Of a DNA stretch of 64,000 bases, positions 31,801 to 34,590 are shown piece after piece. The DNA comes from Escherichia coli (lineage in GTDB: Bacteria > Pseudomonadota > Gammaproteobacteria > Enterobacterales > Enterobacteriaceae): the NCBI RefSeq assembly GCF_003991155.1, contig NZ_CP031293.1, one strand, 5' to 3'. The position numbers are program-made. Every line of letters begins with the position of its first letter. Positions within the stretch are counted from its first letter, which is position 1.

Positions 31801-34590
31801 GGTCAGTTTTTCAGCCAGCGCCGGGCGATTCAGGAACCATTCGGCATCCGCCCAGGACTGCATTACCTGCTTCGCATATTCGTTGCCTGCTTTGGCTTTC
31901 TCTTCTACGTCATAGAAGTTATCGAACATCAGCAGTGTGTGAGAAAGTGCTTTGGCAGCGATCGGTGCCAGTTTGGCATCATCCAGCGCGTCGATCAGCG
32001 GATGAATGTTGTAACCACCCTGCATGGTGCCCAGCAGTTCGATGGCTTTTTCCGGAGTCAGCAGTGGGGATTTGGCTTCGCCTTTCGCGACAGCAGCCAG
32101 GAAGCCTGCTTTGACATAGGCGGCTTCATCGACGCCAGGGGGAACACGGTTGGTTAACAGATCTAACAGGAATTCTTCTTCGCCCGCGGGCGGGTTTTTC
32201 AGCAGCTCTACAAGTGCGGCCATTTGGTTTGCATCCAGGGGTTTGGGCGCAATCCCCTCAGCGGCACGCTCAGCTACGTGCTTACGGTATTCTTCTAGCA
32301 CGACGGTTCTCCTCGCTCTCATTGTCATAGTGCGGCAGGCGATTCTCTTCACGCTCCTGTGAGACAGCAGTTTGTAGGGTAAATGCCCAGTACCGCAACG
32401 GGCAGAATAGCAGGATTTTGACGATGTGTTAATCTGTTTACAAAAAAGCAACATAAAAAAGTGGCTGAATCGTTAAGGATGGTCTAGAGATTGTTTCCCT
32501 CCGTAAAAACTTCGTTAATTCGCATGGTGATAATCACCTTTCTCAACGAATCCCAAGATTAGTCAAAATTTAAACTACCGCCTCTTTATACTCGGAATCA
32601 CAGCACCTGCGGGTGGCAGTTCGCCGACCATTGCGATTTCCTTGAGATCCGAATTATGAAAATGACTTTGCCGTTTAAACCCCATGTGCTGGCGCTAATT
32701 TGCAGTGCCGGGCTTTGTGCCGCCTCTGCCGGGCTATATATAAAAAGCCGCACAGTGGAAGCGCCTGTGGAATCGCAATCGACACAACAGACTGCGCCTG
32801 ACATCTCCGCAGTTACGCTTCCTGCAACGGTTTCCGCGCCTCCCGTAACGCCTGCCGTCGTCAAATCTACATTCAGCACTGCACAAATCGATCAATGGGT
32901 CGCGCCCGTCGCGCTGTACCCCGACTCTCTGCTTTCACAAGTGTTAATGGCATCAACCTATCCGGCAAACGTTGCTCAAGCAGTGCAATGGTCGCACGAT
33001 AATCCACTTAAACAAGGCGATGCTGCTATTCAGGCGGTATCTGGCCAGCCGTGGGACGCCAGCGTCAAATCACTGGTGGCCTTTCCACAATTGATGGCAT
33101 TGATGGGCGAAAACCCGCAATGGGTGCAAAACCTGGGCGATGCTTTTCTGGCGCAGCCGCAGGACGTGATGGACTCGGTACAACGATTGCGGCAACTGGC
33201 GCAACAAACCGGTTCGCTAAAGTCATCAACTGAACAAAAGATCATCACGACAACGAAAAAAGTCGTACCGGTAAATCAGCCCGCCAACGCCCCTGCCACA
33301 CAATCAAATACCGTTTCTACGTCCAGCCCCGTCGTCGCAGAACCTGCACCGACCGTAATAACCATTGAGCCAGCCAATCCGGATGTGGTTTATATTCCGA
33401 ACTACAACCCAAACGTGGTTTACGGTAGTTGGGCCAATACCGCTTATCCGCCGGTTTACCTGCCACCACCAGCCGGAGAACCGTTTGTTGACAGCTTTGT
33501 GCGCGGATTCGGCTATAGCATGGGCGTTGCTACCACATACGCACTATTCAGCAGCATCGACTGGGACGACGACGATCATGACCATCATCATCATGACGAT
33601 GATGATTATCATCACCACGATGGCGGTCATCGTGACGGTAATGGCTGGCAACACAACGGCGACAACATCAATATCGACGTAAACAATTTCAACCGTATCA
33701 CCGGTGAGCATCTTACTGATAAGAACATGGCATGGCGGCACAATCCAAACTACCGTAATGGTGTGCCCTATCATGATCAGGATATGGCAAAGCGGTTTCA
33801 CCAAACCGATGTCAACGGCGGCATGAGCGCCACGCAGTTACCTGCTCCAACACGCGACAGCCAGCGTCAGGCGGCAGCAAGTCAGTTTCAGCAACGAACA
33901 CACGCCGCCCCCGTCATTACACGAGATACCCAACGTCAGGCAGCGGCACAGCGGTTTAATGAAGCTGAACACAATGGGAGCTATGACGACTTCCGCGAGT
34001 TCAGCCGTCGCCACCCACTGACCCAGCAACAAAAGGACGCTGCTCGTCAGCGTTATCAGTCGGCCTCTCCTGAGCAGCGCCAGGCAGTCCGCGAGAAAAT
34101 GCAGACTAACCCGCAGAACCAGCAGCGAAGAGACGCAGCGCGTGAGCGCATTCAGCCCGCCTCGCCTGAGCAGCGCCAGGCAGTCCGCGAGAAAATGCAG
34201 ACTAACCCGCAGAACCAGCAGCGAAGAGAGGCAGCGCGTGAGCGTATTCAGTCTGCATCACCTGAGCAGCGCCAGGCGGCCCGCGAGAAAATGCAGACAA
34301 ACCCGCAGAATCAACAGCAAAGAGATGCAGCACGTCAGCGTATCCAGTCTGCCTCGCCTGAGCAGCGTCAGGTTTTTCGAGAGAAAGTTCAGGAGAGCCG
34401 CCCGCAGCGTCTAAACGACAGTAACCATACTGCCCGATTGAATAATGAACAACGGTCAGCGGTACGCGAACGGTTGTCTGAGCGTGGAGCAAGGAGACTG
34501 GAAAGGTAAATTGCAGACGTAAAAAAGCGGCGTTGTTAGCCGCTTAAGACTGATGACAAACATCGAATCGCCCGATGCGCAAGCTTATCG

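What the first reader, a model, noticed from the sequence alone, without database searches (positions are those of the whole stretch)
33566..34395. YacH contains a His/Asp-rich tract and about 3.5 copies of a 96-bp (32-aa) tandem repeat
The protein has a DDDDHDHHHHDDDDYHHHDGGHRD segment (candidate metal-binding region). Its C-terminal third consists of near-identical repeats ASPEQRQAVREKMQTNPQNQQRRDAARERIQ. Long, near-perfect intragenic repeats are recombination-prone and often vary in copy number between strains.
Basis: seen in the sequence. Interest (0 to 1): 0.3.

Follow-up and report, generated by a model that had tools for sequence, protein, structure and literature searches.

The report
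Length-variable repeats in E. coli yacH
The E. coli gene yacH, whose protein is probably exported and has no known function, carries two in-frame DNA repeats (a His/Asp-rich loop and a basic helical tail) whose copy numbers differ between strains; this is real but an ordinary kind of gene-length polymorphism.

Summary
The ORF at 32656-34509 (+) is E. coli yacH, a 617-aa DUF3300 protein (Pfam E 9e-78). The tract DDDDHDHHHHDDDDYHHHDGGHRD lies at aa 304-327 (nt 33565-33636). A 96-bp tandem repeat of 3.5 copies (88% matches) lies at 34036-34372.

In a spread sample of 60 of 5,425 complete E. coli genomes:
- 33 carry 3.5 copies.
- 26 carry 2.5 copies.
- One carries a divergent allele with its own perfect 33-aa repeat.
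- 4.5-copy alleles exist elsewhere but are rare.

The His/Asp tract is a second variable repeat. A 24-bp unit (DDHDHHHH) occurs one, two or three times, and other in-frame indels occur. Two alleles identical at every aligned base differ only by one such unit.

The AlphaFold2 model shows the tract as a disordered loop between strands of the conserved core. Each 32-aa unit forms two helices with net charge +3. The tract keeps its position and composition across Enterobacteriaceae but is absent from most DUF3300 proteins.

Metal binding is plausible by analogy with the periplasmic His-rich loops of ZnuA and PA4063, but it is untested. No solved structure resembles the fold, and a CpxP/Spy (LTXXQ) relationship was tested and rejected. 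Interest is low to moderate.

The parts
32656..34509 (+). yacH coding sequence (617 aa plus stop), DUF3300 family
   Evidence: The ORF is. Pfam PF11737 matches aa 75-333 with E 8.7e-78, 261 bits against a cut-off of 25. RefSeq annotates the identical locus as yacH. dN/dS against K-12 is 0.17 over aa 1-469.
32656..32730 (+). N-terminal hydrophobic helix (aa 1-25), a probable signal peptide or signal anchor
   Evidence: AF2 predicts a helix at aa 9-24. Family members are reported to carry signal peptides (PMC4653623), and some homologues have lipobox-like N-termini. Cleavage was not tested.
32731..32877 (+). Pro/Ala/Val/Thr-rich disordered linker 1 (aa 26-74), an allelic divergence hot spot
   Evidence: pLDDT is below 50. 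There are 11-14 mismatches per 100 nt against K-12. dN/dS is 0.63.
32878..33564 (+). Conserved DUF3300 core before the tract: helical domain aa 75-200, linker 2 aa 201-232, beta region aa 233-303
   Evidence: pLDDT is about 95 for aa 70-200 and 230-270. dN/dS is 0.06 in both structured parts and 0.31 in linker 2. Nearly invariant columns are listed.
33565..33636 (+). His/Asp tract DDDDHDHHHHDDDDYHHHDGGHRD (aa 304-327): a disordered acidic loop with net charge -10 and 9 His
   Evidence: Position and codons are. pLDDT is 44-50, and the loop lies between strands 299-301 and 338-341. Composition is conserved at the same site across Enterobacteriaceae.
33571..33594 (+). 24-bp unit (GACGATCATGACCATCATCATCAT, DDHDHHHH; register ambiguous) that is present 1, 2 or 3 times in different strains
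   Evidence: The window and K-12 have one copy, GN02323 two and UPEC_U013 three. GN02323 and U013 are otherwise 100% identical. In the genome sample 10 of 60 differ in tract length from the window.
33733..33777 (+). Family-wide conserved motif WRHNPNYRNGVPYHD (aa 360-374; family consensus W.HNP.HR.GV.YRD)
   Evidence: The consensus comes from the 106-sequence alignment. The motif recurs in representatives. pLDDT is 95. There are no nonsynonymous changes against K-12 in aa 331-398.
33850..34062 (+). Degenerate copies of the tail motif (aa 399-469: TRDSQRQAAASQFQQR, TRDTQRQAAAQRFNEA, PLTQQQKDAARQRYQS)
   Evidence: An HMM built from the three full units finds weak copies at aa 403-414 and 426-433, and a clear half-unit at 454-469 (i-E 1.7e-6). 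Helices are predicted at 399-416, 423-438 and 457-468.
34036..34372 (+). 96-bp tandem repeat array, 3.5 copies (TRF coordinates)
   Evidence: Period 96, 88% matches, no indels, score 506.
34063..34350 (+). Three full 32-aa units in protein register (34063-34158, 34159-34254, 34255-34350), of types A, A, A'. Each forms two helices with net charge +3.
   Evidence: Unit sequences and pairwise identities are 95%, 88% and 84%. Helices are at 472-483/486-498, 504-515/518-533 and 536-547/550-564, with pLDDT 57-87.
34351..34395 (+). Partial fourth unit (ASPEQRQVFREKVQE, aa 566-580)
   Evidence: HMM match to unit positions 1-15, i-E 2.3e-7.
34396..34506 (+). Basic C-terminal end (aa 581-617), containing one more degenerate motif (EQRSAVRER) and ending in GARRLER
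   Evidence: dN/dS is 0.04 for aa 566-617. An Arg-rich C-terminus is nearly invariant in the family (R613).
34521..34545 (.). Hairpin with flanking A/T runs just after the stop codon: a probable terminator. In K-12 it is shared with convergent lpdA.
   Evidence: Terminator-like hit on the minus strand at 34545-34525. The same hairpin lies between yacH and lpdA in K-12.

Best explanation
This is the chromosomal gene yacH. It encodes a probably exported envelope protein of the large, uncharacterised DUF3300 family. The conserved core (aa 75-303 and about 335-385) is under strong purifying selection and carries the family's unknown activity.

Two fast-evolving low-complexity modules are attached to it, and both are encoded by in-frame tandem DNA repeats.

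1. The His/Asp tract is a disordered, strongly acidic surface loop between two beta-strands of the core. Enterobacteriaceae keep its composition and position but not its exact sequence. I infer that it acts through composition, most likely as a low-affinity divalent-cation (Zn/Ni/Cu) binding or pH-titratable loop, like the His-rich loops of periplasmic ZnuA and PA4063. It contains a 24-bp unit and GAY/CAY codon runs that slip, giving +6, +24, +48 and -39 nt alleles.

2. The C-terminal tail is an array of short Arg/Gln-rich helices, each opening with an [S/N]-P-x-x-Q helix-capping motif. In Escherichia, two such helices form a 32-aa hairpin unit with net charge +3. This unit has been amplified and kept homogeneous by unequal recombination or replication slippage, giving 2.5, 3.5 or 4.5 copies. 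The tail (net +18) probably serves as a basic, extensible arm that contacts anionic envelope components or balances the acidic N-terminal two-thirds. Changing the copy number changes its length and charge in steps.

Shown here: gene identity, repeat anatomy, polymorphism, selection pattern, predicted secondary structure and conservation of composition. Inferred: export, metal or pH function of the tract, and electrostatic role of the tail.
For: - Identity: Pfam DUF3300 E 8.7e-78; RefSeq yacH.
- Anatomy.
- Polymorphism of the 96-bp unit: gene spans in a spread sample of 60 of 5,425 genomes were 31 x 1854 nt, 15 x 1758, 6 x 1764, and others.
- Unit architectures: A-A-A'-T (window), A-A-B-T (K-12), A-B-T, A'-B-T, A''-A'-T and A-A-A-B-T.
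- Recent changes: RM10809-3 and STEC306 are 99.4% identical yet differ by one 96-bp unit. GN02323 and U013 are 100% identical except for one 24-bp unit.
- Tract variants.
- Selection: dN/dS is 0.06 in the core, 0.21-0.33 in the repeat units and 0.04 at the terminal end.
- Reading frame: 57 of the 60 sampled alleles have a span differing from the window's by a multiple of three. Eight of these were checked by translation or annotation and are intact; two further alleles are annotated as frameshifted.
- Structure: the tract is disordered and sits between strands; each unit forms two helices.
- Charges: tract -10, each unit +3, tail +18.
- Conservation: a tract with 3-12 His and 5-12 Asp/Glu follows the conserved [I/L]DW in 100 of 119 enterobacterial cluster representatives. 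Only about 8 of 108 family-wide representatives have 6 or more His in a 20-aa window.
- Tail motif: it is ancestral and was independently re-amplified in Dryocola, in P0130 and in the divergent AST85 allele.
- Envelope link: yacH is CpxR-regulated, and its deletion raises survival on protamine (PMC9600279). It also responds to a cathelicidin-derived peptide (PMC6737244).
- Known analogues: periplasmic His-rich loops bind zinc (PA4063, PMC8561739; ZnuA).
Against: - No metal-binding, localisation or structural experiment on YacH exists in the searched literature.
- No signal-peptide predictor was available, and the E. coli N-terminus has no lipobox.
- yacH is a pseudogene in many S. Typhimurium strains (an 8-bp deletion inside the tract) and in 2 of the 60 sampled E. 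coli genomes. The protein is therefore dispensable in some lineages.
- Copy number looks stable within clones (all K-12 derivatives and both O157:H7 genomes sampled have 1854 nt). The polymorphism may therefore be neutral rather than tuned.
Confidence: 0.6

Rival explanations
1. Neutral low-complexity drift. Both modules are tolerated, functionless filler in a dispensable protein. Slippage and unequal recombination create length variants that drift, and composition is kept only because slippage copies what is already there.
For: - dN/dS is higher in the repeats (0.21-0.33) and linkers (0.31-0.63) than in the core (0.06).
- The gene is inactivated in many S. Typhimurium strains and in some E. 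coli.
- Deletion mutants are viable with mild phenotypes.
- Length classes follow lineages.
Against: - The tract keeps its position and its His/Asp composition across genera whose tract sequences cannot be aligned. Slippage alone does not explain this over such distances.
- dN/dS stays well below 1 in the units and is 0.04 in the terminal segment.
- 57 of 60 sampled alleles keep a span in frame with the window's.
- Tails of the same motif type persist across Enterobacteriaceae and were re-amplified independently several times.
Confidence: 0.27
2. The repeats are CpxP/Spy-type LTXXQ modules, making YacH a Cpx-linked periplasmic chaperone or adaptor.
For: - The motif S-A-S-P-E-Q-R-Q-A-V-R-E-K-M-Q resembles both LTXXQ motifs of CpxP. 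BLASTP aligns them (E 0.05 for a single comparison).
- One degenerate copy reads LTQQQ.
- yacH is CpxR-regulated.
Against: - Pfam LTXXQ (PF07813) and Metal_resist give no hit to the tail, even at E up to 10. The same search recognises CpxP at E 8e-22.
- hhalign of the unit profile against CpxP gives probability 2.3% over 14 columns.
- The similarity is confined to a helix N-capping box plus polar residues, which can arise by convergence.
Confidence: 0.06
3. Surface-exposed variable antigen or receptor. YacH reaches the cell surface, and its linkers and repeats diversify under pressure from phages or host immunity.
For: - yacH diverges 8-9% between the window and K-12, against about 3% for acnB next door. 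The hot spots are the two Pro/Ala/Thr-rich linkers.
- One 'E. coli' genome carries a 68%-identical allele.
- A localisation predictor quoted in PMC9600279 lists the protein as 'extracellular'.
Against: - dN/dS is below 1 everywhere (maximum 0.63).
- There is no experimental evidence of surface exposure and no beta-barrel or autotransporter domain.
- Divergent alleles may simply reflect recombination plus relaxed constraint.
Confidence: 0.06
4. Phase-variable contingency gene switched on and off by repeat slippage.
For: - Slippage-prone GAY/CAY runs are present.
- An 8-bp frameshifting deletion inside the tract inactivates yacH in S. Typhimurium.
- Two of the 60 E. coli alleles are frameshifted.
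Against: - Both repeat units (24 and 96 bp) and all common variants (+6, +24, +48, -39, +/-96, +135 nt) are multiples of three.
- The E. coli frameshifts are single-base deletions outside the repeats.
- No homopolymer or short non-triplet repeat lies in the 5' part of the gene.
Confidence: 0.01

Closest known systems
E. coli K-12 YacH (b0117), DUF3300 domain-containing protein
   Same: Same gene at the same locus between acnB and lpdA. Same length (617 aa), same tract length and 3.5 units.
   Different: Nucleotide identity is 91.3%. K-12 units are A-A-B-T and the window's are A-A-A'-T: the third unit is only 70% identical and the terminal partial unit 88%. The K-12 tract has one Asp-to-Asn change. 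The window also has an IS621-containing insertion downstream.
Pfam PF11737 (DUF3300) family at large
   Same: Shares the conserved helical-plus-beta core, the W.HNP.HR.GV.YRD motif, an N-terminal export signal, and a low-complexity basic tail ending in Arg.
   Different: Most members lack the His/Asp tract. In rhizobia the gene sits upstream of a DUF2950 gene (PMC4653623), which is not the case here. The near-identical 32-aa units were found only in Escherichia alleles among those examined.
His-rich loops of periplasmic zinc proteins (ZnuA; P. aeruginosa PA4063)
   Same: A disordered loop rich in His and acidic residues on a protein outside the cytoplasm. In PA4063 such loops are disordered in the apoprotein and contribute to zinc binding (PMC8561739).
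   Different: There is no sequence or fold relationship. No evidence links yacH to Zur or to zinc. Binding is untested.
CpxP/Spy/ZraP LTXXQ family (PF07813)
   Same: A short [ST]-P/x-E-Q-x-Q..R/K..Q helix-start motif, an all-helical hairpin prediction, a probable envelope location, and Cpx regulation.
   Different: It fails the family's HMM and a profile comparison. The repeats are 32-aa tandem units, not the CpxP cradle.
In-frame intragenic tandem repeats (VNTRs) in bacterial envelope and surface proteins, and the MLVA typing locus ms11 (96-bp unit)
   Same: A long in-frame unit, copy-number polymorphism between strains, and change by unequal recombination or slippage.
   Different: yacH is not ms11: neither ms11 primer matches the window even with 3 mismatches. 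No paper in the library describes yacH as a VNTR. Only 2-3 common alleles exist, so its typing power would be low.

Membership tests
DUF3300 (Pfam PF11737) | Match to the family HMM above the gathering score | tested here: met
   E 8.7e-78, 261.4 bits against a cut-off of 25; aa 75-333 cover profile positions 2-227 of 227.
DUF3300 (Pfam PF11737) | Conserved downstream motif W.HNP.HR.GV.YRD and nearly invariant core residues | tested here: met
   WRHNPNYRNGVPYHD at aa 360-374. Invariant W133, G161, Q176, R179, A182 and L188 in a 106-sequence alignment.
DUF3300 (Pfam PF11737) | N-terminal signal for export | tested here: inconclusive
   A hydrophobic helix at aa 9-24 is followed by a disordered linker. 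Homologues have lipobox-like or signal-like N-termini, and rhizobial members are reported to carry signal peptides. No signal-peptide predictor or experiment was available.
DUF3300 (Pfam PF11737) | Adjacent DUF2950 partner gene (typical in rhizobia, not a formal requirement) | tested here: not met
   The neighbours are acnB and IS621/lpdA.
LTXXQ / CpxP-Spy family (PF07813) | Match to the LTXXQ HMM or profile-level homology to CpxP | tested here: not met
   No PF07813 or PF13801 hit at E up to 10. The positive control CpxP gives E 8e-22. hhalign probability is 2.3%. BLASTP finds motif-only matches at E 0.05.
Variable-number tandem repeat (in-frame intragenic VNTR) | Head-to-tail repeated units with copy number differing between isolates | tested here: met
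   The 96-bp unit occurs at 2.5, 3.5 and 4.5 copies. The 24-bp unit occurs 1, 2 or 3 times.
Phase-variable contingency locus | Repeat unit length not divisible by three (or a promoter repeat), so that slippage switches expression | tested here: not met
   The units are 24 and 96 bp. The observed length variants are multiples of 3. The rare E. coli frameshifts lie outside the repeats.
Periplasmic His-rich metal-binding loops (ZnuA/PA4063 type) | His-rich disordered loop on an exported protein | tested here: met
   9 His and 11 Asp in 24 residues, pLDDT 44-50, located between core strands. Export is inferred only.
Periplasmic His-rich metal-binding loops (ZnuA/PA4063 type) | Demonstrated metal binding or metal-responsive regulation | not testable with these tools
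   No relevant paper was found. This needs ITC, ICP-MS or Zur/metal transcriptomics.

The most novel reading that the evidence does not exclude
The acidic His/Asp loop and the basic Arg/Gln helical array form a metal- or pH-switchable electrostatic pair in the envelope: the tail is released or bound depending on His protonation or metal loading. The strain-to-strain changes in tract length (24-bp steps) and tail length (+3 charge per 96-bp step) would then tune envelope charge and susceptibility to cationic antimicrobial peptides. This would explain the protamine, cecropin and cathelicidin links and the Cpx regulation.
Probability: 0.08. Interest if true: 0.55.

Novelty: new member of a known kind. 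Interest (0 to 1): 0.25.

Why it matters
yacH belongs to the uncharacterised part of the E. coli gene set and to a very large family of unknown function (about 9,500 clusters at 50% identity).

Three practical points follow:
- Its two low-complexity modules are genuine, conserved in kind and length-polymorphic. This gives concrete experimental handles: natural allelic series of 1-3 tract units and 2.5-4.5 tail units.
- Length differences in yacH between assemblies are real polymorphism, not assembly error.
- The His/Asp tract is a mutational hot spot that has produced pseudogenes in Salmonella.

It does not reveal a new mechanism. In-frame intragenic repeats that vary between strains are a well-known phenomenon.

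Tried and rejected
1. CpxP/Spy LTXXQ homology of the repeat unit. The motif resemblance is real, but Pfam, BLASTP and hhalign do not support homology.
3. The idea that yacH is the published 96-bp MLVA locus ms11. Both primers are absent from the 64-kb window.
4. Literature on yacH and metals, periplasm or tandem repeats. Nothing specific was found.
5. NCBIfam has no model for the protein.
6. Phase variation is rejected on unit lengths.
7. Overlapping ORFs on other frames and strands in the repeat (34142-34414 +, 34202-34492 -) are treated as by-products of the periodic sequence, because the yacH frame shows purifying selection.
8. A complete census of all 5,425 genomes was not possible, because the tool lists at most 60 rows. 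Proportions therefore come from two evenly spaced samples of 60.
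Full report
**Origin and gene identity**

The window is E. coli chromosome. The 1,854-nt ORF at 32656-34509 (+) is 100% identical to yacH of strain 2016C-3878 (NZ_CP029747.1), where RefSeq calls it a DUF3300 domain-containing protein. It lies between acnB (minus strand) and lpdA (minus strand), as in K-12. Pfam PF11737 (DUF3300) matches aa 75-333 at E 8.7e-78. NCBIfam has no model for it.

**Check of the observation**

The tract DDDDHDHHHHDDDDYHHHDGGHRD is present exactly, at aa 304-327, nt 33565-33636. Twenty of its 24 residues are Asp or His, which is far beyond chance (about 2e-19 per window).

Tandem Repeats Finder reports 34036-34372, period 96, 3.5 copies, 88% matches, no indels, score 506.

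In protein register the units begin at aa 470, 502, 534 and 566.

An HMM built from the three full units also detects weaker copies upstream (aa 403-414 and 426-433, plus a clear half-unit at 454-469) and one downstream (598-606). The whole region from aa ~399 to 617 is therefore built from one short motif. Each 32-aa unit is two ~16-aa halves of similar pattern ([S/N]-P-x-x-Q...A-x-R-x-x-x-Q).

**Copy number across genomes**

Megablast against 5,426 complete E. coli genomes finds the gene in 5,425. In an evenly spaced sample of 60 records, the gene spans were:

| Span (nt) | Records |
|---|---|
| 1854 | 31 |
| 1758 | 15 |
| 1764 | 6 |
| 1746 | 2 |
| 1782, 1806, 1757, 1814, 1815, 1860 | 1 each |

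I fetched representatives of each class and translated them. The 96-nt steps are whole-unit differences.

Units fall into sequence types A, A', A'', B and a terminal partial T. The observed architectures are:

| Allele | Architecture | Copies |
|---|---|---|
| Window | A-A-A'-T | 3.5 |
| K-12 | A-A-B-T | 3.5 |
| RM10809-3 | A-B-T | 2.5 |
| 81009 | A'-B-T | 2.5 |
| EC9682 | A''-A'-T | 2.5 |
| P0001 (648 aa, protein database) | A-A-A-B-T | 4.5 |

In the sample, about 33 of 60 have 3.5 copies, 26 of 60 have 2.5, and none has 4.5.

The changes can be recent. RM10809-3 and STEC306 are 99.4% identical in aligned positions but differ by one 96-bp unit.

One genome (AST85) carries an allele only 68% identical in protein. 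It contains two perfect copies of its own 33-aa unit, which indicates continuing homogenisation or amplification in a separate lineage.

A further in-frame 135-bp duplication just upstream of the array exists in other strains (P0027, 662 aa).

**The His/Asp tract is also a variable repeat**

The codons are runs of GAY and CAY. The eight-residue block DDHDHHHH (24 bp) is present once in the window and K-12, twice in GN02323 and three times in UPEC_U013. GN02323 and U013 are identical at all 1,782 aligned bases, so the tract changes faster than point substitutions accumulate.

A second spread sample of 60 genomes, queried with the tract plus flanks, gave:
- 50 with the window's length
- 6 with +6 nt
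- 1 with +24 nt
- 2 with -39 nt
- 1 partial match

Among 90%-identity protein clusters, the sequence between the conserved W and the NGW/GW motif that holds the tract is 21-28 residues where that pattern matched, and other alleles carry shorter (P0038) and longer (P0081) tracts.

In Salmonella Typhimurium an 8-bp deletion (GATCATCA) inside the tract frameshifts yacH. This makes it a pseudogene in 14028s, UK-1, SL1344 and D23580 (PMC3391293, PMC10048834).

Two of the 60 sampled E. coli alleles are annotated as frameshifted. In both, the frameshifts are single-base deletions outside the repeats.

**Selection**

Against K-12, dN/dS varies by region:

| Region | dN/dS |
|---|---|
| Helical domain and beta region | 0.06 |
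| aa 331-398 | 0 nonsynonymous changes |
| Repeat units | 0.21-0.33 |
| Terminal 52 residues | 0.04 |
| Linker 1 (Pro/Ala/Thr-rich) | 0.63 |
| Linker 2 (Pro/Ala/Thr-rich) | 0.31 |

The annotated frame is therefore coding throughout. The repeats are relaxed but still constrained. Overall, yacH is 8.7% diverged from K-12, against about 3% for acnB. The divergence concentrates in the linkers and the array.

**Structure**

An AlphaFold2 model from a 106-sequence alignment has mean pLDDT 73.5. pLDDT is about 95 for aa 70-200 (all helical), 230-270 and 361-380.

The tract (pLDDT 44-50) is a disordered loop between strands 299-301 and 338-341. In the family consensus this loop is only a few residues long (WGxxxWGxxDV).

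Each 32-aa unit is predicted as two helices (472-483/486-498, 504-515/518-533, 536-547/550-564) with pLDDT 57-87.

The S-P-E-Q and N-P-Q-N starts are classic helix N-capping sequences (my own knowledge).

Charges are polarised: tract -10, each unit +3, tail (aa 399-617) +18, mature protein about 0.

No solved structure resembles the model.

**Family context**

An exhaustive HMMER search finds 9,469 clusters at 50% identity. Only about 8 of 108 full-length representatives have 6 or more His in any 20-residue window.

Within Enterobacteriaceae the picture differs. Homologues named as Klebsiella, Raoultella, Kluyvera, Salmonella, Citrobacter, Enterobacter, Pluralibacter, Dryocola and Scandinavium carry a tract at the same place, immediately after the conserved [I/L]DW. 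In 100 of 119 cluster representatives this tract has 3-12 His and 5-12 Asp/Glu.

The sequences differ from genus to genus while composition and position persist. This is the best available argument that the tract is functional.

The tails of these homologues contain degenerate 16-19-aa periodic motifs such as NPTAQQQQRRDNAKSHVQ. Salmonella has roughly one copy of the E. coli unit. Near-identical arrays arose independently in Dryocola (18-aa period, 21 of 24 identical) and in an unnamed 606-aa homologue.

Among the alleles examined, the near-identical 96-bp array occurs only in Escherichia alleles. It is an amplification of an ancestral tail motif.

**Function**

Nothing is established experimentally for the protein's activity. 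The library holds only these points:
- CpxR regulation, and better survival of a yacH deletion mutant on protamine (PMC9600279).
- Down-regulation in a rob mutant (PMC7537768).
- A modest response to a cathelicidin-derived peptide (PMC6737244).
- A sigma-28 SELEX site in the acnB-yacH spacer (PMC5493296).
- Co-localisation of DUF3300 with DUF2950 in rhizobia (PMC4653623), which does not apply here.

My best reading is given in the Best explanation section. A conserved exported core carries two composition-driven modules:
- An acidic His-rich loop that probably binds divalent cations or titrates with pH, by analogy to the His-rich loops of ZnuA and PA4063.
- A basic helical-hairpin array acting as an extensible, positively charged arm.

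The genetic mechanism of variation (slippage or unequal recombination between in-frame units) is shown by the allele comparisons. The biochemical roles are inference.

**Rejected ideas**

- The repeat motif resembles the LTXXQ motifs of CpxP. Homology is not supported by Pfam, BLASTP or hhalign.
- The published 96-bp MLVA locus ms11 is a different locus.
- Phase variation is excluded by unit lengths divisible by three.

**Verdict**

The metal-binding suggestion is reasonable but untested. This is an undocumented but ordinary example of in-frame intragenic repeat polymorphism in a gene of unknown function. Interest is low to moderate.

Noticed in passing
window 34546-35997 (transposase ORF 34788-35768, +): An insertion of about 1.45 kb lies between the yacH terminator hairpin and lpdA and is absent from K-12. 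It carries a gene that RefSeq annotates as an IS110-like element IS621 family transposase. It also holds a REP-like palindrome near 35910-35950 and a second hairpin (35975-35997) resembling the yacH/lpdA terminator. From my own knowledge, IS621 is the element known for bridge-RNA-guided recombination.
   Followed up: partly
window 32756-32956 and 33156-33456: Two Pro/Ala/Thr-rich linker regions of yacH are allelic divergence hot spots, with up to 28 mismatches per 100 nt against K-12 and dN/dS of 0.63 and 0.31. The neighbouring acnB differs by about 3%.
   Followed up: partly
L005 4001-5860 (E. coli AST85, NZ_AP043644.1): At the same locus this genome has a yacH allele only 68% identical in protein, while acnB is 96% identical in DNA. 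The allele carries its own His/Asp tract and two perfect copies of a 33-aa unit. It may have been imported by recombination from another Escherichia lineage.
   Followed up: partly
protein P0027 (E. coli, 662 aa; seen on 19 contigs): A third in-frame length variant: a 135-bp (45-aa) tandem duplication of APVITRDTQRQAAAQRFNEAEHYGSYDDFHDFSRRQPLTQQQKDA just upstream of the 96-bp array.
   Followed up: partly
proteins P0130 (606 aa, unnamed) and P0350 (Dryocola clanedunensis): Independent near-perfect tandem amplifications with an 18-aa period in the basic tails of distant DUF3300 proteins (for example GDARERAREVASNRAAGS four times). Tail re-amplification therefore recurs across the family.
   Followed up: partly
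cluster of P0125: A 536-aa protein in the Rahnella victoriana YacH-homologue cluster is labelled Campylobacter jejuni (VTQ53429.1). The record is probably mislabelled or contaminated.
   Followed up: no
window 29704-32454 (-): The mechanical ORF for acnB runs 916 aa from an upstream ATG, whereas RefSeq annotates 865 aa. This is only an ORF-calling artefact.
   Followed up: no
window 34100-34115, 34196-34211, 34292-34307 (-): Three identical terminator-like hits on the minus strand inside the array. They are one chance hairpin-plus-T pattern copied with each 96-bp unit, not independent signals.
   Followed up: no
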